From Lama glama (lineage: Eukaryota): DNA of 64,000 nt. Location: contig CM052838.1 of the NCBI GenBank assembly GCA_028534125.1, positions 17,608,001 through 17,672,000 on the forward strand. Direction: 5' to 3'. Made by a program: the position numbers and the translations under genes. Numbering within the stretch: position 1 is the first letter of the stretch; every line of letters begins with the position of its first letter. The notes below the pieces were generated by a model that saw only the letters and a list, made by a program, of their open reading frames with translations, ran no database searches and was not told where the DNA came from. Below are positions 3,825 to 64,000 of the stretch, piece by piece.

Positions 3825-4187
<363 letters not shown>

Positions 4188-4682: not shown

Positions 4683-5177
<495 letters not shown>

Positions 5178-22800: not shown

Positions 22801-25800
22801 TATCGATTATGAGGCTTCTGCGTCCTCATCTACATACTGTTGCTCAAATAAAATACAGTTTCCTTCACCCGTCTCCAAGAGGCTCACAAAAATGCTTGTA
22901 TGCCTTGGGCCCAGCCTTATACCACCTCCTTCACACTGGGCGCTCTTTGGGTGGGCAGTGTTGCTCCCCAGCAGTCCAGCAGTGCCCTGACCCAGTGTTT
23001 TCTCTTGCCAGACACCCTGGATTGGGCACACCCAGGCCCCCATGAAACTGAGCCCCAGCAGCTGCTCACTTTGACTCAGCTCAGGTGGCCAGTCTGGGCA
23101 GACCCCTCCTTCCTCAAGAGTGCCTGGGTGGCAGGCAGACCCTTGGCCCCTCCTCAGTCTCCACGCCCTCATGTGTCCAGCAGGAGGTGGGACAAGGGCC
23201 AAGGTCAGGAATCTTGCTCTGAGCCGTGACCCGCGAGAACAGAGCTACCCATGGATTATCATCTGCCCATCCTCCTCTGTGGGCCCACCACTGCTTGGTG
23301 CCCCAGAAATAGACAAAAGGGCCCCCTCCCTGCCTGTACCTTCAGGTCATCTCCTCCCAGGAAACAGCACAGAAGGCACGTGACTGTGAAGGGTCAGAGC
23401 CAGGGGCAAAGAATCAGAGCCTGTGGGCTGGGGCAGTGGCTGCTTGGCCTCAGATCAGGTATCTGCCCTGTGTGGCCACTGACCCAGTGAGGCAGCCTGT
23501 GCCATGTGTGCATCTGTGCAATGGGGTGACAGCACCCTGCTATGCACAGAGAGGACCTAATGGGGTCATGGGGGTGGACAGACAGGCCTTTAGTTTTCCC
23601 AACAGCCTGGCACCCTCTGCCTCACTGGAGTCTCACAACCCCCAGCGAGGGGCTGGCCAAGGATGAGGCTGTTTTATGAATCAGAAATGGAGGCCCAAGA
23701 GGAGATGATTCAACCAGTCACACCACAGGACAGCGGCTGTGCAGCTGGTCTGGGATGGTTTCCCTTCCCCCCAACAAGTCAGTGATCTCACCCATCTGAG
23801 AGCAAGCACATCCCAGGAGATGGCTCCGTGCCTCCCACCCACCCCCTCTCCCACAATCCACCACCACCCCAGCTCACTGTCCCTGGTCTGCTACCAACTT
23901 CCTGTGTGACCTCGGGCAACTTCCTTCCCTCTCCGGGCTGTATGTAAAAGAGGGGCGAGCATTTGTACTTTCTGAAGTCGGTGGCCCCAGGAGTCAGCCC
24001 TGGTCTCACATCAAGGTCTCGTCTCTTGGGGCTGAGGCCCACCCTGACCCCCTCGCAATCCCGCAGGTGCTGTGGGTGAAATGAGCTGTCCATCCTCATG
24101 CCTGGACCCTCCCCCTCCTCACCAGGGTGGGCTACAGGTGGAAGTGACTCCAGAGCTTTCACCTTGCCCAGGTGCCCTGTTTACTAAGGCCTCGAGCCGA
24201 GCTGGGAGTGGATCTGCTGAGGTCTGACAGCCGATGTGAGCAGGACCCAGGTGTGATGGGGCCCCGCGGGTGGGCAGGAGGGGAGGACTCTGCACCCTGA
24301 GCTTCTGGGGCCACAGAGGGGTTAGAACGACAGGAAACACTGTCCCTGGGGGGTCGCAGGATGGACTTTAGTGGCCTTGATGGCTGACCCCTGGAACAGA
24401 AAGCCAGAGATGTTCTCCCTGGGGGGAAATCTTGTCCTGCTGCAAAACAGTCATATCATTGCACTCCCAGCAGCAGCAGCAGCACACGGTCCTGAGTTTC
24501 AGTTACTTCCGGCTTTTCTAGATCATTCGCACTTTGCCCCCTGCTCTGTCATCTCTCATCACCGTGGCTAAGAAAGTCAAAGCAAGGAGGGATCGCCTGC
24601 TGGCCCTTTGGCCGCAAGTGACCCCGTCTCTCTCCATCTCCACCCACTCCCCTTATCCCCGCTCCCTCAGTCCCCACGTGCAGGTGGCTGACCCAGTGAG
24701 TGGCGTGCAGTCCCATCCCATCCCAAGACTCGCAGGGAGGCTCACGGCCTGCCCCACTCAGCCCTACCTGCTTCCCCGCGCTGGGCAGATCCTGCCATCT
24801 CAGGTCCTGCTGTTCAGCCTGGCAGGAGAGGGCCTCTGGGCCGTTCCTTCCTCCAGTGTTCCCACCCCTTCTCCCCAAGGGCTGTCCGGGTTGGCAGGAG
24901 CTGAGTGTCTCCAGGCCTGTGAACTCACCCTGGGAACTGAACTCTAGGGAACCTTGAGGCCGGCAGGGCTGATTCCCAAACCAGTTTGGCTGTCCCTCAA
25001 CCTTGTGGAGCAGGATGTTTGGACCCAAGAGGAGACGTCAGACAGGTTGAGCCTGTCTATGGACTTAAGGAAAATCCCAGCCTGGAAAATTCTCTCTCCA
25101 CCTCACACTACCCTCTAGGCCTTCCTGGATAACTCAAATTCAAATGAAAAGACACTCAAAACAAGCTCAAGGGCTGCTTTCATCAGAAAGAGAATGCCCC
25201 TTTCTTCTTGGGGCTGTCACTCAGTCCTGCTAGTCTGAGGGATGGGCCTGGACAGAGGCACCCACCAAAGAACGGCCCTGTGTACTACACCCCCATGAGG
25301 GGCCGCTAACGCACCCCTGGCCCCCTGGCTCTCAGAAGCCACCTGGTGGCAGTGAAGTCACAGCCCCCATCTTAGAGATGAGGGGCAAGCACAGAGAAGC
25401 TAGGACACACCAGAGCTTGCAGCAGGCCAGAACCAAAGCAGGACATCTCCTGCCTGAGATGTTTGCTGGCAGTGGGGCAGGCATGCGGAGCTAGACCACC
25501 TAAGCTGAAATTATGCAGCAGTAGTAGCCAGGCAAGTGTTCTGGAGAGGGGAGGGGCCCTGAACCACTCACAGCAGATTGAGGCCTCTGTGCACCCGAAC
25601 CCCATATTCCTGGGTTCCAACAGGACAGACTTCTTTGGCTACCCATGGATGGACCAGAATTATCACGGCAGGGAGTCTCCCTACCTCCATCTCGCTCAAG
25701 GCAGCACTGGAGCAGGATGGAGATCTGCAGGCCCAGGGTGGTGAGGATGATCCCCTCTGCCACCACGGGCCTTGGGATGACACTCCCAGTGCACCTGCAA

Positions 25801-44799: not shown

Positions 44800-46550
44800 C
44801 CCGGACCCTGAGGAGAAGGACGGCCCCCTCTGTAGGCGCANNNNNNNNNNNNNNNNNNNNNNNNNNNNNNNNNNNNNNNNNNNNNNNNNNNNNNNNNNNN
44901 NNNNNNNNNNNNNNNNNNNNNNNNNNNNNNNNNNNNNNNNNNNNNNNNNNNNNNNNNNNNNNNNNNNNNNNNNNNNNNNNGAGCTGGGGCCCGGCCCGCG
45001 GGCGCCCTGCCGCCGACCCCTCCGGCCCCGCACTTACCTGGAACTTGCACCGGCCGCGGTCCCGCCCTGGCGCCCGCGGGGGTCTGGGTCCGGCCGGGGG
45101 TGGCCGCGGCAAGCGACTCCGGCAGGGTTCAGCCGGCGCCGAACAAAGGCTGCGCGCAGGCAGCGGGCGCCGCCTGCATCCCCGCTCCGCGCCGGGGCGG
45201 CGGCGGCGGCGGCGCGGGGGCCCGGGCGGCTCCGGCGCCCGCTCGCTCCGTGCTGCCCGCTCCGNNNNNNNNNNNNNNNNNNNNNNNNNNNNNNNNNNNN
45301 NNNNNNNNNNNNNNNNNNNNNNNNNNNNNNNNNNNNNNNNNNNNNNNNNNNNNNNNNNNNNNNNNNNNNNNNNNNNNNNNNNNNNNNNNNNNNNNNNNNN
45401 NNNNNNNNNNNNNNNNNNNNNNNNNNNNNNNNNNNNNNNNNNNNNNNNNNNNNNNNNNNNNNNNNNNNNNNNNNNNNNNNNNNNNNNNNNNNNNNNNNNN
45501 NNNNNNNNNNNNNNNNNNNNNNNNNNNNNNNNNNNNNNNNNNNACGGCCCGCACCCTGCGCCGCGTGCCGGGACCCCGATGGCACGACCACCCGCTCTGC
45601 GTGCGCCCGCGTGGGGCTGGGGGCTCGAGGGAGGCCGGGCGCGCCGCGGCGGGGGGAGGGGAGGGAGGAGGAGGAGCGCGGGAGGAAGATGAAAGGCTAG
45701 CAGACCTGCCTCGTCGTCTCCAGGGAGCCTTGGCTCGCGCGCGCCCTCCCCGCCCCGCGATCCTCGCCGTCCGCACCCCCGCCTCCCAGCCCGCCGCCAG
45801 CACTCACTCGCGCGCGCAGATCGTGGGCCCAGCCACTTTGCTGCGAGGGAACGCGAGCGAGTATGAATCGGAGGCAGCTCACATTTCAAACTTGCACGCA
45901 GGGGTGGTGCTGGTGCACGCCACCGCCGAGCGAACTCACGACCCGACGAGCGGCGCTATAGCCTCCGGGCGGGGGCGGCGACCAGGTCCCCTTTCCTCCC
46001 CCGCCCAGGCAATTAATTGGAAGCAACACTTGTGCGAGTGGGTCTCCCGGAACGCTGCCGCCCGAGGGGGCCGCCGGGAAGGCGCTGGCGGTGGATGACT
46101 TCGGGTGTCTCCCGCCCCCCAGAGATTCCTCCCAAGTGGTCATGCTAATGAGGGTCCAAGGCGGGGTGGGGGCGGAGAAGGGAGCTGGCCTGGAGGCGGC
46201 CTCGGCCCGGGGGAGGGAAGGGGGCGGGGCGGGACTGGGGCATCCGGATTGTGACCTCGTTTTAAAGGATTTTCGGAACGGGTTAGAGGGGCAGAGAAGG
46301 CGGGCGGCCTGGCATCTTTCCTGGCACAGAGGCCCCTGCCACCCCTGGGATTCCCCCAGACAGGGTGAGCGGGCGAACGTACGCTCGAGCTCCCCGACTT
46401 GGGGGAGTTCCTGTGCCCTAGAACCAGAGGCTGTAGGGAAGCCGGGGGCGACTGCTGCGCGCGGCCCTGCCCCGCCCCGGGAGCTGCTGCCTTCCTGACA
46501 CTGCATCCTGTGGTGGCCGCGGCCTCTTCCTTCCAGCCTGTCTGTCGCAA
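44800..46550. promoter_or_regulatory. Intragenic CpG island; probable alternative ZMIZ1 promoter
   Basis: Very high GC and dense unmutated CpG against CpG-depleted flanks; GC boxes (ggggcggggcggg at ~46220-46233, ggggcgg at ~46170); (GGC)n at ~45197-45213; two N gaps typical of GC-rich regions in short-read assemblies. Confidence 0.88.
45038..45264 (-). other. ZMIZ1: Putative alternative first exon of ZMIZ1 (5' end lies in or beyond the gap)
   Basis: Perfect donor TTCCAG|GTAAGT at 45038/45037 in the gene's orientation, at the downstream edge of the CpG island. Confidence 0.65.
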
Positions 46551-46647
46551 GGTCTCCTGGCGCTGAGCTAAGCAGACACCCCTGGAAGCCCACCCGCCTC
46601 CCTACCACCCCAAAAGGTTCTTCGCTCCTCCCTCTTTCGTAAGCATT

Positions 46648-46701
46648 TCCATCACCACGACCCTCTTGGGAGACTCCATCACCACGACCCTCTTGGGAGA
46701 C
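46648..46701. repeat. Perfect 27-bp tandem duplication
   Basis: tccatcaccacgaccctcttgggagac x2 (46648-46674, 46675-46701). Confidence 0.97.
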
Positions 46702-49700
46702 GCTTTAGTTTATAGCCACCTCCCCCAGACCCCACATACCTGCAGTGAAAATTTCTTGAGCGGTGACCTAACTGCCCAATTAGGAAGGTAAGTGGGGCCC
46801 CATCATTCACCCTAAAGAAAGGTAGCCAGAATTGTCTTTAAAATCTCTTCTATATGAGACTGCCATGCACTGCTCTCCTTGCCATAATGGGGAATTGACC
46901 AGGTCTATTAGCCTTTGATGTTGCTTTACCCGCCTTCATTTCTGATTACCACCCCCTGGCCCCCCCACCCTTTTCAGTCTGAGCTCTGGCTGGTCCCTAA
47001 ACCTTCCTGTCTGTCCTACTGCCAGCCCCGGAATTGGCTGAGACAAATCACTTATCTAGAAATTATGTTCTTGCTCCTTGTTTGACATAAATCGTTAGCA
47101 GGCTCTAATCCCACCCACTGCCACTTGAAATATCACTTTCAGGGATGGCATTTGGAAATGCAGTTGTCATGGGCTTTCCCTCTGAGGAGCTGGTTAAATG
47201 GATTAATTCATACTTCATAACTTGCTGCCTTTTGGACAAGAACTCGCTCCCTGCAAGAGAGATTAATTGGCATTGCCTTCCTGCAGGGCCAACCCTGGGA
47301 CAGCTGGGGAAGGGCTTTTCTGCTCTGCCCAAATTCCAGACTCTGCTCAGTCTCACCTCCTCTGAGGAGCCTTTCCTCATCTTGGGTTATGATGGCTTCT
47401 TTAGGGATAGTGATTTATTCACTGAGACATGCACTGGGGCCCTGCCCTCCCAAGCAGCCCCACAGGGGTTTGAGATCCCAGGACGGAAGAGGCTAGTGAA
47501 GACCTCCCATCTTTCTCTCTTTCCTTGGCCCTGTCCCCGCTGCAGATCCCGTGGACCACAAACTCCAAAGCCCAGTGCTGAGTGACACTCAGAAACAGAG
47601 GAGACATGACAATTTGGCCTCCTTTTCAGAAGAAAACACTGAGATGGATGTCCCTAAGATGTGGTTTCTAACATTAATCTGGTTTTAACACAATGTTAAG
47701 GTGCAGACCTCAATTATACAGAATTCAAGCAGCCAAAGACCTCAAATAACCAGAACACAGGTGTCCTGGATCCTCCCCTCCCAGAAGTTCTGTGCAATGA
47801 TAGTTCACAATAGTCATCTGATCATTAGTGTCTTCTAAGCCACCAAAGAGCCAAACGTTTGGAACATCCAGGTTCATTCTTGAAATATCCTGTATGTGTT
47901 GGTACCATGTGGCCCCAGTCACTGAATTCAGAAATACCACTCCTGTAGGTTGAACTAGAATTTGGACTGGAATTGAGCAGAGTTTTACAACAGAGGGACA
48001 CCGACCTGGTGGCACTGCCTGGGAGATGAATGACAGCCCCACCACTCCCCCTCCCCCACCTCCCAGGGAACTACTCTGGAAGGAGCCCAGGGGTAGGGTG
48101 AGGGAATAGCTTTGACATGCTTATTCAAAGCTTCACAGGCCTGGGACCAACTGACTTTCCCAGGTGAATTTTAAAAAAGTGGGAGGGGGTCCTCTCCACA
48201 AGCAGATTTATGTAATTAGGAAAACAAATTATTTTCAAGAATCCATTCACCAGCCAGCACAGAAGGCCTCCCGGCCAAAGCTAGGGTTTTCACATGCTAA
48301 TTTCAAGGCCAGCTCAGTCCTATTCAAACCCCTCCCCAGCCCACTGGGTTACACACTGGGAGTCTAGAGAAATACAGCTACTCCAACCAGTTCCTGCTTC
48401 AGAAGGGCTTCTCCCCATTTACTCCACGTTCCAACTCCACTTCTCCAACTTCCAAAGATTTGCTCAAAGGCCTGGGGCCCAAAGTGGCCCGCTCCACCCC
48501 CTGGGCGCCTGCCTTGATAAGGATCTACAGGAAAGAGGCTGCAGACAAAGGCGCTCTCCACCTCTGCACGCAGTCACTCAGCGAGCTCTCTGAGTGACCT
48601 CGGCGAGGGGGGGCACAGCCCAGGGGGATGACTTGGGAGGCAGAAGAAAGGAAGAAGAAAGGGAGAGCTGCGGCCTGGCGCCGTGGCTCCTTGATGAATG
48701 CCCGCGAGCGCTCGGGAAGCCTGATTCGGGGATCAATAGCTGGTGGCTTTTCTTGCGGGTGTTTGAACTCCTCCTGCCGTGGGCCCTGGTGGGGAGGAGC
48801 TGCCAATAAATCACAGCACTGCAGCCGGGAAGGCAGCCGTGCCATGCACTGGAGGGCGCGGGAGGGAGGATGCTTCACCCAGCTGGGGGGCCTGTCGGGT
48901 GGAACCCATGTCTGCAGGACCAACCGGGCCATGGGGGGGAAGGGACCGCTAGGGTGGAGTCGGGTGCAAGAGGAGCCTCCTCCAGGACACCCCAGCTCAC
49001 ATCCAGAGGGATGGGTCTTCTGGATTCTGCCCCAGCCCAGGCCAGTAAGGAGAAAAGAGCAAAGGATGTAGGTCCCCCAGGGGTGGAAAGTGGTTTCCAG
49101 GCTCAGGACTGGGTCATCTCCTATGTAAGGCTTTGGGGGGGGGTGCATACAAAACCCTAGCTCCCTTCAGTTGAGATGGAGGCAGAACAATGCACCCAAG
49201 AGCCACAGAGCCAAATCTTTCTCAAGCTGGGCTTGCTGATTCAGCAGGTCTCGACAAGGACCCTAGTGACTCAGAGATGTCACCCTTTTGGGCTCCAGCA
49301 CTTGGAGGGAGAAGGAAGTAGACCGGGAGGCCCCAGGTGGTGCCCGCAGGAGTGTGGCAGGCATGAGCTCAGGCCTTGGGACCTGCTTGGTCATCTGTCT
49401 CCACACAACTGGTCCTTCTCAGTCAGGACACATGAAAGGGCGTGCGGGGCACAGAGTAGGTTCAATAAAGGCACGCAGTCACACCGGGGTAACTAACTGG
49501 CCGTGGAGCATCTGTCTCACTGCCGGCTGGGCTACCCCAGGAAGCACTCAAGCAGCTGCACTGGGCGCGAGTTGATTCAGGGACTCTGCCTTCAAGGACC
49601 TTTCTCTGGGGCTTCTGCCCACCTCTGAGGGGTCAGGACACAAACTGCAGTGTCTTTTGATAACACTGTTCCCTTGCCCCTTTCCCTTCCTCCTTCACCC

Positions 49701-49914
49701 AGGTCAGCCTCCTTAATTCTACATGTACAGTCTTGAAGAAAGAAAGCACAGCTGAGGTTCAGCTCGCAGCCAATGCTGGTGTCTCTGCCAGGCCTCAGGA
49801 CCCCCCAGCCCCACCCCGACACACATGTACAGGGACAGCAGGAGGGCACACTGCCACTGGGGACACAGAGCTGGAAGCCCCAAGCTGGATCCAGGTGTCT
49901 CCTCTATCCATAGT

Positions 49915-50140
49915 AATACAGACCTCATGGTACTGAGTGCCTGCTGGCTGCCAGGTACAGTTCTAGGCACTTTCCAAGTATCAACAAACCATCCTCGCTG
50001 ACAGCCCTCTCTGATAAGGTGTGATTATTATTTCCACTCTACAGAGATAACAACGAGGCACAGAGAGTTTTAGACACCTTGCAGAAGGATTTAAACTACC
50101 CAGCCATCTGGCCCTAAAGTCTGCACTGGTAACCATCATA
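49915..50140 (-). mobile_element. MIR SINE
   Basis: tactgagtgcctgc...tgccaggtacagttctaggcacttt...ctacagagataacaacgaggcacagagag. Confidence 0.75.
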
Positions 50141-51094
50141 CTGTATTCCCAAGATGGGACTTCAGGATCCAGAGGAGACTGAGCATCAAAGTCACAAAGT
50201 GAGATGTGATGAGAGTCATGTCCCCCAACTCTTGTTTCATGTTCTTTCCAGCACATCATATTACACGTATGGAAATGTTTTGTTTCTTTTTGTTTCTTTT
50301 TCCTGTTTAGCCTCTGTGTGATTTAGGCATCTACCTGACATTCTGGGTTGGCCAGGGCCTCCACCTGAGCGGGGATGGGGTTCATAGTGGAGAATAAGAC
50401 CTCCCTGGCTCAGAACATCCTGTCACTGCACCCTACTCCCTTCCTGGATTTATCCCCCAGCAGGGCCCTCATCCCACACTCAGGCTACATTCCCAGAAGT
50501 CTGCATTTGGCACTGACCCAAATCTTATGATCATTTCATTAAGAAAACAAAACCAACCCCTGCCCTACTCCTCCAGCGGCACCTCCGAGAAACCCTACAA
50601 TTGCTTGAGAGGTTAGTGGGGATCCAGGAAAGCCTCCTGCCAGGCTGAAGGAGAGAGGATGGGGGGGGTGGAACCCAGGAACCAAGCATGAAATGGTATC
50701 TCAGGTGGCTTCTGTCTTTAAGAACTGCCTGCCCTTCCACTCACTCAGCTGGGAAGGCAGCCACACCCCAGGCAGTCTGCCCTTGCCACTGGGATGCCCC
50801 CGCAGGCCTCTCAGCTATGCGGACAGGGCCCGAGGGGTTGGAGAGGAGACAGGAAGGAACTGGCCATGCCCTCACCGGCTGAGGAGCTGTGGAGAGAGGC
50901 GATGTGTCTGGATTTGGAGGCTGAGGCTCAGGAACTAGTACTGACGAGCTGGTGGCCCTGGACAAGTCACGTAGGCTTCCTTGGGTCCCCACCTCCTCCT
51001 TAGTATAATAGGAGTGAGGTCAGCTAATCCCAGGTGCTAAGGAGGACCAAAGGAGATCACAAGCCATCATTCTCAAGAGGCTGAGCAGCCGTGG

Positions 51095-51529
51095 TGTTGT
51101 GGGTCTGTGTCCCCACCGCCACCGTCCCTGCCCCCAAAGGTGCTGAGGTGCTAACCTCCAGTACCTGTGAACTTTTTTGTACACAGGGTTGCAGATGATC
51201 AAGTTAAAATGAGGTCATTAGGGTGGGCCCTAATCTTAGATGAGTGGTGTCCTTATACAAAGTAGAAATTTAGATACAGAGACATGCAAACAGGGAGAGT
51301 GCAGTGTGAAGACTGCACTTCTGCCGTCGTGAGCCGGGGAACTGCTGGAAGCTAGGAGAGGTGCTTGGAATAGGTCCTTGACTGGTGCCTTCAGAGCAAG
51401 CACGTCCCTGCCACCAGGACAACTCAATCTTGGACTTCTGGCCTCTAGAACCACGAGACAACACAATCGTGCTGTCCAGGTCACCCTGTCTGTGGCACTT
51501 TGTTATGGCTTTTCTAGCAAACTAATACG
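51095..51529 (+). mobile_element. MaLR solo LTR, MLT1B-like
   Basis: Starts tgttgtggg; contains ttgcagatgatcaagttaaaatgaggtcattagggtgggccctaatc and tggacttctggcctctagaac; ends ttgttatggc...gcaaactaatac; 5-bp flanks cgtgg/cacgg. Confidence 0.88.
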
Positions 51530-51534
51530 CACGG

Positions 51535-52075
51535 TGACCCTGCTAAAACCTAAGTCACGGCTCATCATTCCTCTGCTTAAACCCCTCCCCCCGTGGCTCC
51601 AGCTCAATCCGTGTAAAAACCCACATCTTTATTACAACCCACAAGACCCCACGTAACTCGGGCCCTGTCACCTCCCTTGACCTCACTGTCTTCCAGTCTC
51701 CCTCTGCTTTACTCTGCTCCAGCCTCGCTGCCTTCAGGCTGCAAATGCCCCCACGCTCTTCTCTAGGTGGCTGGACTCACTTCCCACCTCCTGCAGGCTT
51801 CCACTCAGGTGACACCTCCCCTGGGAAGCCTTCCTCACCTGCACTGCCCAAAGCTGCAGCCCCTCCTGACACTTCCTACCGCTCTTTTCCTGACTCAGGT
51901 TTTCCTTAGCCTTTATGACTGACGCATTTCAATTCCTTCTCTTGCTAACATGGTCTCCCTTGCTAGAAGTCAAGCTTATGTCAATAGTGACTTTTGTCTG
52001 TTTTGAACACCTTATATTGAGAGGATCTAAAATATGCCAGGCAGATGCGTGGTATTTGCTGTATGAATGAAGCAT
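51535..52075 (+). mobile_element. L2 LINE 3' region
   Basis: aaaacctaagtca...cattcctctgcttaaacccctcc...cacctcccctgggaagccttcc...tatttgctgtatgaatgaa. Confidence 0.75.
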
Positions 52076-54138
52076 GGGCCAGCTACCTGATGGAATAAGT
52101 GAATCAAGGAACAAACGAGTGAATAGTTGGGACTGTGGTGCCCTGTTCCCGCTGCCTGCCTGCCCGAAGCCGAGGTCCCCAAGCTGCAGTCTGGGAGAAC
52201 GTGGGTTATTTCTCAGCGGAGGCAGCCTGTTCAGACAGGAAGCTTGGGCCAGCTAACAAAGGGGCTGCCAGAGGTGGTGGGGAGCTCGCCACCCAGGCCC
52301 CTAATGAATCTCTTCCCATTGATTTCTGGAGTCGCCTTTGAAGGGAAGGGAGGCCTAAGGCAGCTCGAATGTCCGTGCCTCAGCAGTCCTGGGTTTTTTT
52401 TTCCTGTTCCCCGGACACAGCTTTGACAGGGGGCTTCCGGACAGCCCCCAGTTCGACTGACATAAGCTCCCTGCAGTTGTAAAAGCAATTTTCCTTCCTG
52501 CTGAAACTGTCAGTCTTTCTGCCTGCCTGGCTGGGCAGCACACCTCCCTGTCTGGGCTCGGGCAGCCAAATTTCACTCCTGATGCTCCCCAGACAAAGGC
52601 TCTCACAGGCACCAGGAGGAGGCCGTCCTCCGCTCTGCAGAGGAAGAAATGGAGCTCAGATGAGGGAAGGATTTCAGGCCGTACACACTCTCTGACTCAT
52701 GGCTGGGGGCACCAGCAACGCTGAATGCAGGCTGCCCCAACTACCACCTGACCCCAGTGTACCCCACAACCTGCACAGCCTATGACATCAGCCCTTTTTT
52801 CCTACAGGGACTCTACTTGCCTATCTGGAAACATCAACTCCTTGAGCATCGAAGTAAAGACAGCCTAGTCAATTTTCAGCTGAGGAAACAGACTGAGGCT
52901 CAGAGAGGGACCAGGGCTTCCTCCAGTCACATAGCAAATTAGTGACAGAGTCAGGACTAGATCCAGGACATCTGGATTGTTCCAGAGCCCCAAGCCATCC
53001 CTCCCAGTGTTTTCACCAACTGCAATGTCAAGGGTCAGCTCTCCAAACTGTAAAGTGCTAGACACATTTACTATTCTAAATGGCTCTTGCCCATCAACTG
53101 CTTCTTTCTATGAGCTAGGATTCAGATGGGGAGTGTCTGCCCTACTCTGTTCTTCCCCCCTCTTCACAGGGAGGTTGGGAGCCAGACTCTGGAACTTTCA
53201 GTCCCTTCCTCATCTACAGTGGGGGTCACATGCATCAGGAAGATGGGTGGTGGCATGAAAAGAAGATGGGTTTGGACTCAAAAGAAGGAAGCAGCTCCTG
53301 ACAGTCAGGGCTGCCCAGGGTGGTAGCAGGCACCTTTGTCACCCGAGGTGTGTAAGCTGAGGATGGGGAGCTGTGGAAAGGATCCCACGCTGGTAGGCTT
53401 ACGGTTCCTGAGGCCCTTTCTGTTTTGGGGTGCTGTGATAGGGAGGAGGAGAGGAAGGGTGGTTGAGAAGCATGCCCAAGCACCTCAGTGCAGCCTGGGC
53501 AGCAGTGCAGTAATTTTACAAGCTTCCTGAGCCCATCAAAGCTTGCCAGCAACCCTTCGTCACCTGGTGCACTCCCCGCCCTCCTCTCCTGACAGTCTTC
53601 CAGGTGCCTGCTCCCTTCCAGCCCCTTGCTCCCAGCCCATGGCAGCCCAGGGGATCTGGTGACTTCCTTCACTCCCCCAGCATGGTCCCAGGTGCCCCCC
53701 CAACCCCGGGGGCTCAGGACGTGAACAGACAGGCCACGTAGGAATGTCTGTCTGGGGAAAATCCAACGTGGCCGCCAGGGCAGGGCAAGGAGTGGGAGGC
53801 CTGGTGTTGAAATCAGGACCTGCAGAGCTAAGCTCAGCAGGTGGGAACAGCACACTCCTCAGCCCAGAGGCCAAGGCCCCAGGGGAGGGAGATGCTGCCT
53901 GTGAGAAGGACTTGGGAGCTTACTGTGTGACCAAGGGCAGGTCACTGTCCCTCTCTGGGCCACAGCTTCCCCACCCACTGAAGACATCTAGTGTAGATGC
54001 AGGAACCTCTCTTTGCTGCTGGGGGCACCTGTCTCCCCAAGTTTGGCTGGGAAGACCCCAAGAAGTGTCACTATTGAGCTGACCCCCACTGATTTCCTGT
54101 AAAGGCCAGAGTAGACCAAGCAAGATTCCTATACTATA

Positions 54139-54473
54139 CAGTTGGCCTTCTGTATCTGTGGACCCTGCACNNNNNNNNNNNNNNNNNNNNNNNNNNNNNN
54201 NNNNNNNNNNNNNNNNNNNNNNNNNNNNNNNNNNNNNNNNNNNNNNNNNNNNNNNNNNNNNNNNNNNNNNNNNNNNNNNNNNNNNNNNNNNNNNNNNNNN
54301 NNNNNNNNNNNNNNNNNNNNNNNNNNNNNNNNNNNNNNNNNNNNNNNNNNNNNNNNNNNNNNNNNNNNNNNNNNNNNNNNNNTTTATATACAAGAGACTT
54401 GAGCATTTGTGGATTTTGGTATCTGTGGGGGGGTCCTGGAACCAACCCCCTATGGATACTGAGGGGGTGTCTG
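54139..54473. mobile_element. MER2-like TcMar-Tigger MITE spanning an N gap (54171-54382)
   Basis: TA|cagttggccttctgtatctgtgg ... gacttgagcatttgtggattttggtatc...ctatggatactgagggggtgtctg|TA: terminal inverted repeats and TA target-site duplication. Confidence 0.85.
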
Positions 54474-54579
54474 TACATAATCCTGTTAAGACAAAGAAGC
54501 CAGTTGCAAAGCAGCAGGCCCACTATGGTCTCATTTTTGGATATTTATTTGCAGCCTATCTATACGCACATCATTTTTC

Positions 54580-54695
54580 GTAGACTGTGAGCTCCATGAG
54601 GGCAGAGATTTTTATCTGTTTTGATCAATACTGTATCCCTGGCAACGCTACACTTGGCATACGGTAGGTGTTCAACAAATGTTTGTTGAATAATG
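54580..54695 (+). mobile_element. L2 3' end
   Basis: tagactgtgagctccatgagggcagagatttt...tgtatccc...ttggcatacggtaggtgttcaacaaatgtttgttgaat. Confidence 0.82.
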
Positions 54696-55989
54696 GTTAT
54701 TCACCAAGTTATTATCCCATGGGAGTGAGAGCTCAGTTATTCTTTAATTTCTTTGTCATGTTCTGTGTGCCTTAACTGTTCTGCAAGGAGTATGTGCTAT
54801 GTTTGTGATTAGAAATAAACACCCCATAAAACCACTTTCATTTTAGAATTGAATGAATTCAAAGTTGAGACTTTCCCCATCCTGAAAAGCGCTACACGTC
54901 ATCGTCAGAACTGATAACTCGAGAAGCAAGCATAAAACAGCTCCAAGTCACCAACCGAGCGTCTGAGGCTTGGACTGCAGGTGACCTGGGGCAGGACGTG
55001 GGCAACAGGAGTCACCGTCTATTCCTTTCTTTCTACACCCGGCTCAGTTCCACCCCAGCGGTCTCTTGTCTTGGGGGACAGCCTCCAAACTGTTTTTTCT
55101 GCCTCTGGTGTAGGTCCCTCCTCTACCTGAGGTTTTCTAAAAAGCAAATCTGACCATGTCACTTCCTTGTCTAAAACCTCCTCTGGCTCCCCAGTGCTGT
55201 CAGGATCAAGTTCAAGTTCAAACTCTTTAGACTGGTATTCAAGGCCCTGGAAGTCTCATGCTTTGGTCTCGAAGAGAGTCTTTATGCTAGCCTCCACCTG
55301 GGTTGCTCCTGTCTGGATGCCTCCAGAAAATGGCTTAAAGGCTTTTATAAACCCTGGTTCACCCAACTTTACTGGGTGTATGCTTTCCCCCCAAATTTAC
55401 ACACCAAAGTGTTGAATAGTGGCTGGGTACCAGTCTGCAGCTGGGAGGAGAAACTACCACAAATCCAAGGGTGGCAGGGAAGCTAAATCCTGCTCTCCCA
55501 CCAACTGAGGATTTGTCCATAGGGACTGGAGCCAGGCCCCCCATGATGAATTTGAAAGGTGGGACAAGACATGGGCCAGCAGCTTAGATAGGGGATGTCA
55601 AGGAGGGAAAAAAATCAGCCCTGGGGATCTCAGCCCTGAGGATGCTGTGGTTGGGGGCCAAGCAGCTTTGCCTCTTCTCTGACTCAGTTTCCTCATCTGG
55701 GATGCAGGCAGCATTTTGGGATGTGTGGTAGGAAGTCACAGCTCTGGGAGCAGCACTCCTGCGGCTCCCCCCAGCAAAGGGAGCCCACTCCCCCCCTTGG
55801 GCCCCAGACAGAACTGGCATTGTGGTATGTAATTGAATTTGGCCTAATTACCTAATTGTGCTGAGGAACAACCAGTACCAACAGAAGCTTCAAGTGTCGG
55901 GGGTGGTTGGAAGCCAGGAGCCAAGAGGCAGCCTCCAGATTCCCTAGGCATCCAAGGGAAGCAGTGCCAGCACCAGCACCCTTATATCC

Positions 55990-56470
55990 CTTAACCTCTC
56001 AGTTGCTTGGAACCCTGGGAGGCAGGTGGCAACTGTTCCCATTCTACAGGTGAGGAAACTGAGGCTCAGAGAGAAGCATCTTGCCCAGGGATACCAAGTA
56101 AGAAGAAGTAGAGAGAAAATTTGAACTCACATTTCCTCTGCATTTGGGGCCTTTGCACATGCTGTTTCCTCTGCCCAGAATGCTTTTCCCTGTCCTCTTT
56201 GGGCAGATTTTCTCCTTGGAGCCTTCCTGCAAGGGTCGTTTCCTTGAGAAAGCTTTCTCTCAGCTCCCAGGCCCATGGCCCTCCTCCACTCAACCTTTGC
56301 AGAGCCGGTCACAAGATTACATCATCGTCGGAAGGCATTTATTCCAAGTCGGTCCTCTCCATCAAGCCCTGAGCTTCTGGAGGGTAAGGACCACATCCTC
56401 CTCACTCACACTATGCAGGCATCTAGCACAGGATGCTGTGGTGCTCAGTAAATGTATGCTGAATGAAAGG
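55990..56470. mobile_element. MIR (minus strand) followed by L2 3' fragment (plus strand)
   Basis: cccattctacaggtgaggaaactgaggctcagagag; then ggcctttgcacatgctgtttcctctgcccagaatgct...gtgctcagtaaatgtatgctgaatgaa. Confidence 0.78.
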
Positions 56471-57039
56471 AGGAATAACCTCTAAATTCTTGGATTCTTC
56501 CAGACGTAGTCTGTTGGTTTCCTGCCATCACTGGGGGTGGGGGCCTCATCTGCAAGGAGTAATGCACCTGGGACTATGACAAGGGTCCCCCAGAGTCATA
56601 GGGGAAGGATAGGAAGGCCACTCTGTGAGGCCCTGATCTGGGAGCTACAGAGATGAGATCCCACTGTTGGGAAGTGAAGGGACAGGAACAGGGTCACCCA
56701 GCTTGCAAGGAGCCAGGACTGGAAGACAGGACTGCCTGGGTCTGGGACCTGGCCTCACCACCCTTACCATGCTATTATCAAGAGACAGAATGAATGAACA
56801 AGGCTAATGACAGAGGGACACATAACTTAATCCAAAGAAAATTAGGTGAAGAGTGGAATTTCAGGTCTTGTGAAACAAGGCAGGAGAGATATGATTAGAT
56901 CCCTCCACAAAGGCAGCTGCCCCCTGGGCTGGTTCACAAGGCAGCCCGGCCCCTGGGACGCATCCAGGGCTCCACTCATCCAGTCACCGGGATGTCAAGC
57001 CTCCTTCTTTCTTCTGGGAGGTAGTCTGACCTGGTACCC

Positions 57040-57230
57040 AAGTGTGCAGGAGCAGGACTGCCTGGGTCTAATTCTAGCCCAGCCACTTGCTAATTGTGTG
57101 GCCTTGAGCAAGTAATTAACCTTTCTGAGTCTCAGCTTCTCAATATTTTTATAAAGATGAAAGGAGAGGAAGTCTGTGCAGTATTTTGCCCAGCGTCTGG
57201 AACATGGTCAGAACTTCATAAAAGTTCACT
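57040..57230 (+). mobile_element. MIR SINE
   Basis: gactgcctgggtctaattctagcccagccacttgctaattgtgtggccttgagcaagtaattaacctttctgagtctcagcttc. Confidence 0.8.
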
Positions 57231-58281
57231 CCTTAATTGATTCATAGTAGTAGTAAAATAAATGTAGTATTGGAAGCGATAGGCTAGCATGAGTAATAGC
57301 AGGAGCAGTCACAGTAGCTGTCATGGGAGTAACGGTCCTGCCAGTAGCAATGGGAAGAGTATTAGTGGTAAGCACCGTATCAGGTTGGCCCTCCCCCTGG
57401 CGCAAGGAGGGATGCTGGGAAGATTGCTCCCTCTTTCTGTGCTGATCTCCCCTCAGATAAAAAAAGAGGGTTGGGCCAGGTGATCCCCAAAGGCCCTCTG
57501 CACACTGACATTCACATCAGAGTAACAGCAGCAATGAAAACAAAACTACTGCAGATACTTACTACTGAGACTTACATACCCCTTGCACTCCAAAAGGGCA
57601 CTGTGCTCCCGCTTCCTCTGTCCTCTCCAGCGCACAGTATTCTCTTCCTCAACCCAGCCTATTATTCCTCTCACAGCTAATTTTTGGGGAGAGGGTACTC
57701 TCCACCCACCTGTTTTGCCTGTTACCAGGATGTGGCAAGTGGATCCCGAGTTCTCACGCCACGCAGGGCACAGCTCCCTCCACGTCGTTGATCTAATCCT
57801 CAGTACCTCTGGGAGGGAGGTATGGTTATCATCATCTGTTTCCTGATGCCACTGCTAAGGCTCAGAGAGGTTGTGCCATTTACCTGAAGTCACACAGCTC
57901 GAAAGCAGGGAGCAGAATGCAAACCCAGGGTGGCCCACCTCCATGGCTGGACATGCCATGTGGGTGATTTCTACACTTCAAAGACTCCTGTGCCACCCCC
58001 GCTTCCACTCCATTCAGGTGCTCCTCACTACCAACCCTCCCCTGCTCACATGGCATGAGGCCTCTTTCCATATTCACTGAAGATAACACAGTCGGCATGT
58101 ACTCCACAGACGTACCCTTCTTCCTCCCATCAGTCATGAGACCATCTGTCCCTGCTTAGTCCTCAATGGTTTAAGTCCCGTTCCTCCACTGGCCACCTGA
58201 GAGCCAGCCCTCAGGGACAGCTGGACTGTCCAGTACTGAGTCTTAAATACGAGGTGATCGACAACATTAAAAACTTCAGGA

Positions 58282-58390
58282 GGGGAGTGGAGGGTATAGC
58301 TCACTGGTAGAGCACGTGCTTGGTGTGCATGAGGTCCGGGGTTCAATCCCCAGTGCCTCTGTTAAGGTGCAGGGGGGAACCTAAAAAAAA
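58282..58390 (+). mobile_element. tRNA-Ala-derived SINE (camelid vic-1-like)
   Basis: ggagggtatagctcactggtagagcacgtgcttggtgtgcatgaggtccggggttcaatccccagtgcctct with A box (TAGCTCACTGG) and B box (GGTTCAATCC), A-rich tail, and imperfect TSD aaaaacttcagga / aaaaatcctcagga. Confidence 0.85.
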
Positions 58391-59013
58391 TCCTCAGGAT
58401 ACTTCTTGCAGAATTGGAAGCCCTGGCGGTTCTGGGCACATGTCTCACATGGCCTCAGGAGGCCCCCTGCGCAGTGGCTGCCCCGTTGGGGGTTCTGGGC
58501 TCTCTGATCCCCCAGACTCACCCCGTGTTTTCCCCCTGGATGCCACTGCTCTTTGTGTCACCTCCTGGCTGGGTGGATATGTGGGTCTGTGACACCAAAC
58601 TGAGGAAGCCCTTTCCACCTGGTGCCCGGACCCTGAAGTTTAGCCTCGGCCAGCCAGGGGCACTGGTCTTCCGAGGGAACAGACCCCACTGATGGGCTGC
58701 CTCCGTGCTCCCTGTCCTCTCTCTTTAGAGGGGCAGTGCCTTCCTCCTCTGCTGTTTTCTCCTCACACTGTTCTCTCTTCGTTTGGGGTGGGAGGAGAAG
58801 AACCAGATGCAGAAGCCCGGTCCCCAGGAGGCAGACACACCAATCTCTCCCCGGAGAGACTGGGAGTGGCTCACACTCATCACACTTGCCAGCGCCCGGC
58901 CTCCCGGCCTCCCGACGGAGCGCGATGGCACACCAATCTCCCGCCGTCTGTGCCTGGGGAAGGCGAGCTCCTGTTTTCTCTCTTCCCAGCCCCGTTTGCA
59001 CAGACGTGGGCCC

Positions 59014-59015
<2 letters not shown>

Positions 59016-59056
<41 letters not shown>
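59016..59056 (+). repeat. (CA)n microsatellite, ~20 units
   Basis: Uninterrupted CA run. Confidence 0.97.
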
Positions 59057-59058
<2 letters not shown>

Positions 59059-59388
59059 GCCCCGTGCCTCCCGGCCTCCCAGCAGACGCTTAATTGGGAG
59101 GCAGCGATTCTAAACATCTGGGCCGCACATCTGAGAGTGGGCTCGGGACCACACGGAGCCTGGAGGAAAGGGAAGACATGCAATTATGTCACTTCCTCGG
59201 CTGACAGTACTCAGGAGGGGACAGCGCCAAACAGCAGCAGGCACTTCTGGGGATGTAGCCCAGGGCTGGACTGGGGCTGCCCCGGGCAGTGAGCCTGGGG
59301 CCCAGAGTAAGAGGCTGCAGGTGACGACGCCTGGGAAGAGCTGAGCTGCAGCCAGCAGGACCGGTGGTGCATGGAGCTGCGGTCCCAA

Positions 59389-59585
59389 GGGGAAAGGAAG
59401 AGACAAAGGAAATGAAGGAGAGAGGAAAGGAGAGGGGAGGAGGACAGCGAGGGAGAAAGAAGAAAAGAGAGGGAGGGAAGGAGAGAGGGAGAAGGACTGA
59501 GGGAAGGGGAGGGAGGAGAGACATGGGCAGAGGGAGAGAGGGGAAGAGAAGGAGCGAGCCAGGAGGACAGAGTGGGGAGGGGAGA
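59389..59585 (+). repeat. GA-rich low-complexity tract
   Basis: ~200 bp of almost exclusively purines on the plus strand. Confidence 0.85.
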
Positions 59586-59709
59586 CTATTTTATTTTGTT
59601 CAGCATGGAGAGAGGCCTGACCCTTCCAGGCAATGGAGCTGCCCCTGGCAGCCCACAGGGAGAGCAGCAGCCTCCGACAGGGTGCGTGGTGGACACAGAC
59701 GACCCAGTT

Positions 59710-59860
59710 CTGATCTCAGCCCAACTCAGCCACTCCCCAGCTGTGTGATCCTGGGCACGGACTTCACTTTTCTGAGCCTCAGTTTCCCCATCTGCAAAAG
59801 GGGATAGAACTCTCCTTCGTGGGTCATTGTAAGAGTCAAGGTGCTCACCTGTGTCAAGTG
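59710..59860 (+). mobile_element. MIR SINE
   Basis: agctgtgtgatcctgggcacggacttcacttttctgagcctcagtttccccatctgcaaaagggata. Confidence 0.8.
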
Positions 59861-61454
59861 ATGGCAGAGTCCGGACTATCCCTGAACTGTCCCTGGTTTT
59901 TCCAGCCCCTCTGAGTTGGGAGCTTCCTGCTGGAAGTGGCTGGCCCCAGAGGGTTCTGCACGCCCCACCCCCACCCGCCTTCAGCTTCTCCCTTTGCCGA
60001 TGTGGGTCTGTTGACATTGTGTTTTTCCTAACCTGTCCAGGTCTGTGAGCTCTTGGCGGATACAGAAGATCTCTAGGGTTACCTAAGTGCCAATCACAAA
60101 GTCGGCATATAATAGGTGCCCTTGCACGTTTGTCTAAGGGGTGAATTAGTTTATCCTTGCACTAAGTTTCTGCTGTCATTATAATTATGTGCCTGTTTCA
60201 AAGGCAGGCTCCTACTCCCCCCCCACCCCTCTTCAGTAATTCTTGCTTCCTGCCAGAGACAATAGTGGCTCTTCATCCCAAACAGGTGAGACTAGGTCCT
60301 TTGGAATTCCCTACAAGAGTCCAGCCCCAGGCAACGTTTCCCACCTGACCAGCCTCAACAAGCCAGAAAATGTGCCTAGGAATATAATGAAGCATCTGTT
60401 AATAGCTCTTCAAGGGAAGTCATTGGCTAGAGCTCCCAAGCTCTGGAGTCTGTTTCTCTCTGGACCCAGGAACAGCAAGGGCAGGCACGGCCAGCCAAGG
60501 AGGCGATGATTCCTTTCAGCCACCTGCCAGGCCACCACCCTGCCCCCAGAGAGGGGAATTACCACCTTGCAGAGCTTCCACTGCAAAACACAAACACCTG
60601 GTTGCCTGGGCAGCACCTTGCCTGGGTGACGTGCTCCAGATGGTCCCTTGAGAGGCAGCTGGGTTGCCACGGAAACGGAATTGCTGTTGCTTCAGCCAGG
60701 AGACTTGGATTCCAGATCCTCTGGACCCCAGGCTTAGAGAGGTGAAGAGATTTGCGTAAAGTCACACAGCAAGTAGGTTTCAGAGCCTGCACTGCAAGGC
60801 AGGACTTACTAACAGAACGATTATGTAGCCCTTCTGAGATGCCAGCTTGAGTTAAGTACTTTGCACTCATTATTTTGTGAGAGGCTGGAGACGTGGCTGA
60901 GGACGCACTTGGCATGGATGTGATGGAGCTGAGCTGAGCCCAGTTCAGCCTGATCCTGAAAGCCCGAGCTTGGACCCCTATCTCATGCTGCCGTCTCTTT
61001 GGTTTCTAGGTTTTGGCTCTGCATGCCCTGAGACCAGCCCTATCCCAGCAGCTCACTGGACCCGACTCAAGGGCCACTGAAAGCGTGGGGGCCAGGAGGG
61101 CTGGGGGCCTGCAGGTTGGGACCAGCACTTCCAGGGCCTGGTCCCTCCTAAGCCCTCGCTGTGCTCTGCACACTGATGACGGGTAGCTTATGAGGGACAA
61201 GAGGATGAGGGTCTGTTGGCCAGATGGGCCCTGGGGACAAGGCTGAGCAGGACACTCACATTTGAGCCTGATCCCTGAGAGAGAAGGTACAACCCCGGGC
61301 GAAAAGGAGAGAGGACTTGGAGTTAGAGCAGCCTGGTTCACACCCTCCCCCTACTCCCTTGCTTCTTTCCATCCTCTCTTTAGTCTCAACTGTCCACACA
61401 TCTGTCCCATCAGAGGGTCTGTCCACTCACCCCTCACCTTGTTACACAAAGGAT

Positions 61455-61620
61455 CTGAGTTACTTTGGGCAAGTGTTCTTTTACTTGGGCAAGTTGTTCA
61501 TCAGTTTTCCAATCTACAAAATGGGTTGGTTCATCATGAGGATCAGGGCTGATGTTCATAAAATACTTAGTACAAAGCCTGGCATGAAGTAGGAGCTCAA
61601 GAAATGGTACTTTAAATGTT
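61455..61620 (+). mobile_element. MIR SINE fragment
   Basis: cttgggcaagttg...tcagttttccaatctacaaaatggg...aaaatacttagtacaaagcctggcatgaagtaggagctcaagaaatg. Confidence 0.75.
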
Positions 61621-62124
61621 ACTTTCTCTCTTGAAAGAATTTTGGGAAGGGTTGCTGGGAGACTTGGAGAGACAGAGACCCTCAAACTTCCCCAGGCCAA
61701 GGCACAGACAGGGTGTCACTGGCCCTGTCTAGCCTGCCTCAGCCGGCTCTCTGACTCTGTACTCCTGCAGGCCGCCTGCCTCCCCGACTGGGGTCAGCCT
61801 CCTTTTTGGAGGGGAAGATGGGGTGGGGGTGCAGGGAGGGCTAGGGGAGGAAGATGTGCTGTTAACCCCATGTGAACCTCTGCTGTCTTAGAGAAACCTG
61901 TAGGCATCCAGCCCTCAAGAAGGGGCCATTCCCTGGCCTGAGTTAACAGGACCCCACTCTACCTACTCACTTGGAGGTGGGTGTTGTTGGCACTTATCTT
62001 GGACCTACTTATTCCATATTTTTTCAGACCCCAAACCAAGACACAGGTCAGGCAGAGGGTTCTGACCTATCTCCAGGTATGAGAGGCATCCTAAGAAAGT
62101 CTGAATGCCAGCATGTTGGAATAA

Positions 62125-62365
62125 GATTGCTAACACGTATACAGCACCTAGTATATGCTAGGCCTTGTTCTAAGCACCGTACATACATTAACTTACTTAA
62201 GACCCGTGATGTAGGCATTATTACAATCCCCTTTTATCACTTAAGGCAAGCTTGGCACAGAGAGGGTAAGTGACTTTTCCAAGGTCACACAGCTGGTGAG
62301 TGGAGGGTTGGGTGGTTTTCATACCCAGACATGCTGTTGCCGCGTCCAGGCTTTTAAGCACTACT
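62125..62365 (-). mobile_element. MIR SINE, near full length
   Basis: gctaacacgtatacagcacctagtatatgctaggccttgttctaagcac...ggcacagagagggtaagtgacttttccaaggtcacacagctggtgagtgg. Confidence 0.85.
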
Positions 62366-64000
62366 CCTCTCTCTGAAATAGCTGAATGGTTTCTGGAAAA
62401 AAAAATATTTGAAATTGGGGTTGACCAGAAATTGTGATAAGAAAGCTGACATGTACTGAATGTTTACTATGCGCCAGGCTCTCTGCTCCTCACCATCCCT
62501 GGGACCGTGAGGATTGAATGAGCGCAAAGATGCGAGGGCGTTTAACCTCCCAACAAGGACAAATCACTGTCAAATACTTAATATCTCTACCTGCAAGCAA
62601 TTCAGGTGATCCTGACAAGCTCTCTTCAGTCCTTAACACGTCTTTTTCAGCATTTCATCTCAACCTGTACATAGAGAGTAGGGGGCAGCTTACAGCTTCA
62701 GGGTTAGAGATTCTTGTTTGAATCACAATCTTGGCTGTTTTTAACCAAGTGGCCTTGGTTAAATCACTCACTCTTCCTAAAGCCCAGTCTCCTCACCTCT
62801 AAAATGGGGCAGACTTGGGTCTGGGATCAACATGGATGTTTTACACAGTGTCTGGGACCATGAGAAACACTGACCAAATATTTGCTATCATCACGATTGA
62901 AAGGGACGGTAAATTAGATTTTTCTGTCCTAATCTAGATGCCCTGCCCTGGCTCTGTAAGTCTAAACAGGCAAGGCTGATGATACCTGCACCATCGTTAA
63001 TTTCTGTCTGCCTGTCTAACCCAGGGGGTATTTACAAGGCTGTGGCTTGCAACACTTGCTTTAAAAGTTCCATAACCACCTTGCCCACTTTCTGCCAAGT
63101 CTCTGCTCCATTTCACTCTCACACCCTTGAATCCCCTGAAATCCCTCCTCTGGGGGTGAGAAAGCTAAGCTCTGTCTTAAAACCAAAGCTCTGGCTTCCT
63201 TAATCCTCTTACCTGACTCTTTCCTCTGCAGAATTAATTGGTGCCCATGGCTTTATGAACTTCTCTAGCGGCCACGGCATCTTCAGGGCACCCTGGGGTG
63301 GTGGGGAATGTTTTGGCCAGACCTCTGTCCCGGATGCACCTTTGGGCTGGGTTGTGGAAGGCAGCACTGTGGCTGCAAGGTGACAACAAGCTTGGTGCCT
63401 GGAGGGTGATAACCCTGTGGCCCTGCATCGACCCAGAGGCCATGCATTTCTTTGGGGACACCTGCAGAGAAGCAGGGATGGCCTGAGATCTGGTCCCACT
63501 TCCGCAATCACTGAGGCCATCTCCCCACCTTTCAGAACCTTAGTCTTTTCCTCTTTCAAGGGGAATAAGCCCGCTTTGGGGATCTCAACGGGCTGGACAA
63601 GGAAGGCCATGTAAAGGGCCTGTGTCTGTGTGGGATTACTGTCATTTCTCATGCACAGAATGGGAGCATTCATTGACTTCAAACCCCGGGAGCAGGGACT
63701 GTGTGTGGTGCATTTATATGTGTTTGTAGCCCCCGTGCTTGGCACGGAGTGGGTCTGGCAAAAGATGCTTATCATTCCTTGCCCTGAAAATTCCTGTTTA
63801 GTACTTTTTATTCTGGGAGGCATTCTCAAGCCCATGACCTCATCATTCTCCCTGTAGCCATGAAGATGGAGAAATGGTGCAGATGCACTGGACTGTGGAA
63901 GAAATGGATGCTGGGTGAGGGGATCGGCCTGACTGGGGGAGGTGAAGGTGGAGGGTGGCACTCAGGCCTCCGTGGCCTCATCCGGGGCTGTCCTCTGACT

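What the first reader, a model, noticed from the sequence alone, without database searches (positions are those of the whole stretch)
44800..46550. Internal CpG-island promoter predicted to make a TPR-less, ZMIZ2-like ZMIZ1 isoform
Seen: a CpG island ~29.5 kb upstream of the 15544 exon, with a perfect sense-strand donor CAG|GTAAGT at 45038. Known: the ZMIZ1 N-terminal ~120 aa form the TPR domain that binds NOTCH1, and the exons for aa 1-93 lie outside this window, upstream. The paralogue ZMIZ2 begins at a position equivalent to ZMIZ1's MSSMKP...DGSF segment. Inference: transcripts from this island skip most of the TPR and could start at the Met residues inside the 15400-15544 exon (hidden in the gap here). 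The product would be a Notch-uncoupled, ZMIZ2-like co-activator, making promoter choice a switch on ZMIZ1 function.
Basis: partly seen in the sequence, partly recalled or inferred. Interest (0 to 1): 0.7.

Follow-up and report, generated by a model that had tools for sequence, protein, structure and literature searches.

The report
Second ZMIZ1 promoter drops Notch-binding domain
A CpG-rich stretch inside the mammalian gene ZMIZ1 matches a start site already mapped in human cells and likely makes a shorter protein without the Notch-binding front end; the short form is largely known, but it may be an ancient animal feature that the sister gene ZMIZ2 kept permanently.

Summary
Observation confirmed: the window's only large CpG island (44881-46717) lies mid-way in the 57-kb ZMIZ1 intron between the aa 59-94 and aa 94-142 exons, with a consensus sense donor at 45038. 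Human capture probes match it by eye, so it is the orthologue of FANTOM5 promoters p3/p5/p13/p14/p19@ZMIZ1 (hg19 chr10:81,003,044-240), expressed in human neuronal cells. Splicing 45038 to 15544 was not shown here. If it occurs, the first in-frame Met of relatives is M125, so the whole solved TPR (aa 1-120) is lost. M125-start ZMIZ1 isoforms are already in RefSeq (mouse to fish), and truncated or 'short' ZMIZ1 isoforms are in print. ZMIZ2 starts at the equivalent of residue 129 and had no TPR in any hit examined. Notch uncoupling of the endogenous short form is inferred, not shown. Verdict: real, mostly known, with a modest untested evolutionary twist.

The parts
44881..46717 (.). Intragenic CpG island in the 57,045-nt ZMIZ1 intron between the aa 59-94 and aa 94-142 exons
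   Evidence: GC 0.71, CpG o/e 0.85; intron length and 27,552 nt from upstream exon
45291..45487 (-). Projected main start-site cluster (human p13, p3, p19, p5@ZMIZ1); falls inside an N run, so placed by colinearity only
   Evidence: hg19 peak coordinates; anchor window 45175 = hg19 81,003,356 read by eye from probe; projection
45038..45354 (-). Predicted alternative first exon (5' end taken at the p3 peak; 254-450 nt depending on start)
   Evidence: splicing not shown
45129..45179 (-). 16-codon upstream ORF, G at -3, ends 183 nt (spliced) before M125; the only ATG in the visible part of the exon
   Evidence: 46 of 47 nt up to the stop identical to human probe by eye; human ATG lies just outside the probe and was not seen
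45032..45040 (-). Consensus 5' splice site CAG|GTAAGT
44935..44964 (+). Projected antisense CAGE peak just inside the intron (human p@chr10:81003567..81003596,-); inside an N run
24768..24798 (-). Second candidate alternative exon in the same intron: ATG, 10 codons, phase-1 donor; like the N-terminus of a dolphin RefSeq isoform
   Evidence: P0161, XP_059982944.1
15400..15544 (-). ZMIZ1 exon for aa 94-142: last TPR helix, then inferred M125/M132/M135; mostly N; 3' end predicted from codon count; human p7/p9@ZMIZ1 probes flank it
5037..5151 (-). ZMIZ1 exon for aa 142-180 (segment shared with the ZMIZ2 N-terminus)
3826..4043 (-). ZMIZ1 exon for aa 181-253, holds M186, start of the published Delta1-185 form

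Best explanation
The island is the orthologue of a CAGE-mapped internal ZMIZ1 promoter and likely starts a transcript whose non-coding first exon is predicted to splice from 45038 to the aa 94-142 exon, so that translation would begin at M125 (or M132/M135) and give a roughly 943-residue ZMIZ1 lacking the whole Notch-binding TPR, with the same domain layout as ZMIZ2. Shown: island, donor, exon positions, match to human sense CAGE peaks, ZMIZ2 start register. Inferred: the junction, the start codon, damping by the 16-codon upstream ORF (leaky scanning or re-initiation), loss of NOTCH1 binding, and greater stability or activity of the short form by analogy with Delta1-185.
For: Island and donor. 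Two human probes assigned to p3/p5/p13/p14/p19@ZMIZ1 match the island by eye and are colinear (1345 vs 1363 nt apart); four of these peaks are sense-strand and up-regulated in differentiating LUHMES cells (PMC11893885). 20 of 176 ZMIZ1-related proteins fetched begin at the M125 equivalent, including mouse XP_030103723/4; the mouse form has no PF18028 but keeps the GBD-like and MIZ domains. TPR structure 5aiz spans aa 1-120. The TPR is the NOTCH1 contact according to review PMC13687641. Endogenous truncated transcript uc001kag.2 and an intragenic-methylation-controlled truncated transcript are reported there; a 'short isoform promoter' in PMC8647835. ZMIZ2 in this genome starts at the residue-129 equivalent behind an in-frame stop, with a phase-2 intron at the same place.
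Against: No junction read was obtained here. None of the 454 proteins scanned for an alternative N-terminus at the aa 94 junction carries one from this exon's frame, as expected for a non-coding exon but giving no link between this promoter and the M125 isoforms. At least two other starts could yield TPR-less forms: the p7/p9 cluster at the aa 94-142 exon and the 24798 exon. The upstream ORF could suppress or degrade the message. The primary papers (Rogers 2013, Mathios 2019, Pinnell 2015, Wang 2018) were not held, so I could not check that their short isoform starts at this island. Functional data concern Delta1-185, not Delta1-124.
Confidence: 0.62

Rival explanations
1. The island is an active promoter but mainly regulatory: its RNA is short, bidirectional or held down by the upstream ORF, and little protein is made.
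For: About 11 unnamed sense peaks and one antisense peak are spread over 1.7 kb of the human island; the only visible ATG in the exon opens a 16-codon ORF with a fair context that looks more conserved than the rest of the exon.
Against: Consensus sense donor; peaks carry the gene's name and p3 is high in rank (FANTOM5 naming rule recalled, not from a call); short ORFs 183 nt before the main start usually allow re-initiation (general knowledge); M125 isoforms annotated in many vertebrates.
Confidence: 0.2
2. The island makes a TPR-less protein, but the working start is M186 (the published Delta1-185 form) or a short new N-terminus from another intronic exon, not M125; the product then lacks the ZMIZ2-like N-terminal segment too or keeps the last TPR helix.
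For: Delta1-185 is described as similar to uc001kag.2; 3 of 176 proteins start at the M186 equivalent; candidate coding exon at 24798-24768 and dog and dolphin isoforms with their own N-termini; p7/p9 CAGE cluster.
Against: M125-type starts outnumber M186-type 20 to 3; the aa 94-142 exon has the nearest coding acceptor downstream; its Met residues are conserved.
Confidence: 0.13
3. The island drives a separate gene nested in the intron, like mouse Israa, rather than a ZMIZ1 isoform.
For: Mouse Israa is a sense transcript 22 kb after exon 6 and 30 kb before exon 7 of Zmiz1 (PMC4762778), by distances the same intron and about the same place (equivalence inferred from exon numbering).
Against: That paper found no orthologue outside mouse and no regular donor; the human peaks are assigned to ZMIZ1; Israa may itself be unspliced read-through from this promoter. 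I did not compare the Israa sequence.
Confidence: 0.05

Closest known systems
Human FANTOM5 promoters p3, p5, p13, p14, p19@ZMIZ1 (hg19 chr10:81,003,044-81,003,240)
   Same: Orthologous sequence, same strand, same place in the gene
   Different: Mapped as peaks only; the passages seen do not treat protein outcome; activity in this species untested
Endogenous truncated ZMIZ1 transcripts: uc001kag.2 (Rogers 2013), intragenic-hypomethylation transcript (Mathios 2019), 'short isoform' (PMC8647835)
   Same: Internal start, N-terminally shortened product, control by intragenic methylation
   Different: Seen only through a review and passages; start coordinates not verified against this island; framed as tumour or immune events, not as a Notch switch; the review calls the truncated species absent from normal tissue
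Sleeping Beauty Zmiz1 Delta1-185 oncoprotein
   Same: Lacks the TPR; more stable and transforming
   Different: Transposon-driven, starts 61 residues later, lacks the segment shared with the ZMIZ2 N-terminus
ZMIZ2 (Zimp7)
   Same: Starts at the ZMIZ1 residue-129 equivalent, same intron phase there, no TPR, same GBD-like and SP-RING domains
   Different: Separate gene (G000:C7), 63% identical, own well-supported clade
Internal-promoter Delta-N isoforms of transcription regulators such as DeltaNp63/DeltaNp73 (recalled)
   Same: Second promoter in a long intron removes an N-terminal module
   Different: There the transactivation domain is lost; here a partner-binding and possibly inhibitory domain is lost while the C-terminal activation domain stays

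Membership tests
CpG island (Takai-Jones thresholds, recalled) | Length over 500 bp, GC at least 55%, CpG o/e at least 0.65 | tested here: met
   1837 bp, 0.71, 0.85, with 379 N left out
Intragenic alternative promoter of ZMIZ1 | Sense-strand capped 5' ends at the site | tested here: met
   At the human orthologue only; anchor read by eye; not shown for this species
Intragenic alternative promoter of ZMIZ1 | First exon with a sense 5' splice site | tested here: met
   Consensus donor at 45038
Intragenic alternative promoter of ZMIZ1 | Splicing into downstream coding exons | tested here: inconclusive
   No reads could be laid; only indirect support from annotated isoforms
Intragenic alternative promoter of ZMIZ1 | H3K4me3 and low methylation | not testable with these tools
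   Review reports methylation control of an intragenic region, coordinates not seen
ZMIZ2-like architecture (works like) | No Zmiz1_N TPR; GBD-like plus SP-RING kept | tested here: met
   Mouse M125-start isoform P0150 and six ZMIZ2 proteins; 0 of 120 listed ZMIZ2 hits with PF18028
ZMIZ2-like architecture (works like) | N-terminus in the same register | tested here: met
   M-K-P/S at residue 7 in 93 and at residue 4 in 8 of 120 hits; ZMIZ2 exon in G000
ZMIZ2 (membership) | Product of the ZMIZ2 locus and clade | tested here: not met
   Window encodes ZMIZ1; ZMIZ2 is on C7 and a separate clade, 100/100
Notch-uncoupled ZMIZ1 | Short protein fails to bind or co-activate NOTCH1 | not testable with these tools
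   Inferred from the TPR requirement stated in PMC13687641

The most novel reading that the evidence does not exclude
ZMIZ genes have carried a two-start design since early bilaterians: an upstream promoter makes the TPR-bearing, Notch-coupled form and an internal promoter makes a TPR-less form. ZMIZ2 is that short form frozen after gene duplication, while ZMIZ1 keeps the switch, with output of the short form gated by a conserved upstream ORF. The 'tumour-specific' truncated ZMIZ1 would then be a normal, ancient isoform.
Probability: 0.3. Interest if true: 0.6.

Novelty: already known. Interest (0 to 1): 0.35.

Why it matters
ZMIZ1 is a NOTCH1 cofactor in T-cell leukaemia, a neurodevelopmental-disorder gene and an autoimmune risk locus. 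If a conserved promoter makes a TPR-less form in normal cells, then knockouts, siRNAs, antibodies and patient variants upstream of aa 94 hit only one form, eQTL and methylation signals may shift form rather than amount, and the proposal to target truncated ZMIZ1 as absent from normal tissue (review PMC13687641) needs checking. The promoter and the short isoform are catalogued already; the untested parts are the Notch switch, the upstream ORF and the origin of ZMIZ2.

Tried and rejected
Sequencing runs: no RNA holder listed (18 of 24 rows held half or more of the words, none on record as RNA); not used as evidence. No reads or contigs were laid, so the junction stays open. A non-AUG in-frame start (CTG at 45125, open to the donor) was rejected as a conserved start: by eye the human probe differs at that codon and has two 1-nt gaps before the donor. 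The 985-987-aa mammalian isoforms first looked like a conserved new N-terminus but keep the full TPR. Bacterial promoter scan is not relevant. Rfam on 45544-64000 gave only a tRNA-like hit at 58290-58361. Five papers were not held. Supplements of PMC8647835 did not give the short-isoform promoter's coordinates (2 of 22 files unreadable). Nine paper searches answered plus one search listed no paper that, in the listings or passages I saw, ties this promoter to Notch uncoupling or to the origin of ZMIZ2; most subscription papers, including the Lomeli 2022 review, are outside the library, so this is not proof of absence. No earlier scan finding covers this locus. Weak PF18028 hit on C29 (E 5.9) not followed. 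The tree did not resolve ZMIZ1 as a clade (29/28); a first tree script failed. No fold or complex job was run: the TPR is solved and the question is one of expression.

Full report
Observation. The window holds part of ZMIZ1 on the minus strand; tblastn with a primate ZMIZ1 (P0005) places aa 93-103 at 15548-15516, aa 142-181 at 5153-5034, aa 180-252 at 4046-3828 and further exons below. The exons for aa 21-58 and 59-94 lie 8-16 kb beyond the window's end. The intron between the aa 59-94 and aa 94-142 exons is 57,045 nt. A CpG island at 44881-46717 (GC 0.71, o/e 0.85; 379 N) is the only one over 500 bp among 9 CpG-rich patches. The 9-mer CAG|GTAAGT at its 3' edge is unique on the sense strand and lies 29,493 nt before the acceptor at 15544.

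Is it a promoter? Supplements of PMC11893885 (seen: passages, and rows of Datasets EV2 and EV5) list FANTOM5 sense peaks p5, p19, p3 and p13@ZMIZ1 at hg19 chr10:81,003,044-81,003,240, 4 of the 7 ZMIZ1 promoters differentially expressed in LUHMES neuronal differentiation, all in the cluster that rises from day 3. Two capture probes assigned to this cluster (which also names p14, 11 unnamed sense peaks and one antisense peak) match the window by eye: hg19 81,003,356 corresponds to window 45175, and the probe ending at 81,001,993 to about 46520, 1363 versus 1345 nt apart. Projected, the named peaks fall at 45291-45487, inside an N run, 250-450 nt before the donor. So the island is the orthologue of a catalogued human ZMIZ1 promoter. 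Two more probes, for p7/p9@ZMIZ1, match near window 15895 and 15030 and flank the aa 94-142 exon: a further start region. No RNA evidence for this species was obtained.

What would it make? In the visible part of the exon (45264-45038) the only ATG is at 45179; it is in the ZMIZ1 frame but stops after 16 codons; the N part of the exon cannot be read. By eye, 46 of the 47 probe bases up to that stop are identical in human (one silent change), against about 11-12 differences, two of them 1-nt gaps, in the next 73; the human ATG itself lies just outside the probe. A conserved upstream ORF is thus likely but unproven. After the junction the first Met in relatives is M125, then M132, M135 and M186, the first three under the N run. 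The solved TPR, 5aiz, covers aa 1-120 and PF18028 aa 8-106, so an M125 start removes the whole domain. Of 176 ZMIZ1-related proteins (fragments included), 20 start at the M125 equivalent, 2 at M135 and 3 at M186; the 20 include mouse, African rats, lynx, birds, a lizard, frogs, caecilians and fishes. These are database models and do not say which promoter is used.

ZMIZ2. In this genome ZMIZ2 lies on C7. Its first coding exon has an in-frame stop before the ATG, 50 coding nt and a phase-2 donor, matching the end of the ZMIZ1 aa 94-142 exon; its start equals ZMIZ1 residue 129. None of 120 listed ZMIZ2 hits (of 147; all named ones mammalian) carries PF18028; among 14 hits longer than 980 aa, the 7 ZMIZ2-like ones (loris, turtle, three birds, opah, a fused bichir model) lack it (six rescanned at E up to 0.1).

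Deeper history. From 150 representatives I picked 10 divergent ones for naming, a choice biased to long or TPR-bearing proteins. Among 26 listed members from five invertebrate groups (one 113-aa fragment left out), 16 have the full TPR and 10 lack it or keep only the last helix. Abalone (three species), horseshoe crab, the crinoid Antedon and a spider have both kinds from one gene; Ciona showed only long forms. Short forms start at a Met just after the TPR (positions 127, 131) or right at the aa 94 junction equivalent (97); two abalone and the spider short forms have their own N-termini. A tree of 21 X-SPRING regions gives ZMIZ2 as one clade (100/100) but leaves ZMIZ1 and the root unresolved. 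TPR loss in ZMIZ2 is the simplest reading; that the two-start design is ancestral is a hypothesis, since 5'-incomplete gene models could mimic it.

Literature. Review PMC13687641 (passages and section 6.1) states that the TPR is unique to ZMIZ1 among MIZ proteins and is the NOTCH1 contact, that Delta1-185 resembles endogenous uc001kag.2, and that intragenic hypomethylation raises a truncated, more stable transcript in glioblastoma; it also calls these species absent from normal tissue. PMC8389471 (passages) shows Delta1-185 more abundant and transforming, and notes that the N-terminus is thought to inhibit the activation domain. PMC8647835 (passages, supplement search) refers to a short-isoform promoter contacted by an MS-risk region, without coordinates in what I saw. 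PMC4762778 (two sections) puts mouse Israa at about this place. PMC9706891, PMC11057416, PMC12646675 and bioRxiv 2021.05.14.444216 were seen as passages and added little. The primary papers were not held.

Mechanism and verdict. Most likely an unmethylated internal CpG-island promoter fires at about 45300-45490, splices at 45038 to 15544, and ribosomes that pass or re-initiate after the short ORF start at M125-M135, giving a TPR-less, ZMIZ2-shaped co-activator. Rough odds by step: promoter 0.93, junction 0.8, protein at useful level 0.65-0.7, loss of Notch binding 0.8 once the protein exists; I give the core statement 0.62. The element and the short isoform are already catalogued, so novelty is low; the Notch switch, the upstream ORF and the 'ZMIZ2 as frozen short form' idea are testable additions. 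Interest 0.35.

Noticed in passing
window 24768-24798 (-): ATG plus 10 codons and a phase-1 donor resembling the N-terminus of dolphin RefSeq isoform XP_059982944.1; a second candidate alternative exon in the same intron.
   Followed up: partly
window 17135-17200 (-): Matches (59%) the N-terminus of a river-dolphin gene model P0008; probably a prediction artefact.
   Followed up: partly
L007 (G000:C34:52085-55183): Processed ZMIZ2 pseudogene: exons joined, frame disrupted.
   Followed up: partly
window 58290-58361 (+): tRNA-like element with an anticodon unusual for eukaryotes and an A-rich tail; likely a tRNA-derived SINE.
   Followed up: partly
window about 50700-51300: Projected place of the human FANTOM5 enhancer chr10:80997251-80997825 that loops to ZMIZ1 p7/p9; a small CpG-rich patch lies at 51528-51727. 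Projection over 6 kb is rough.
   Followed up: no
window 44935-44964 (+): Projected human antisense CAGE peak just inside the intron, pointing back over the first exon.
   Followed up: no
relatives: Many mammals have 985-987-aa ZMIZ1 isoforms that keep the TPR and are shortened further downstream.
   Followed up: no
L004 (G000:C29:10540431-10540562): Weak PF18028 match, E 5.9, with a stop; probably chance.
   Followed up: no
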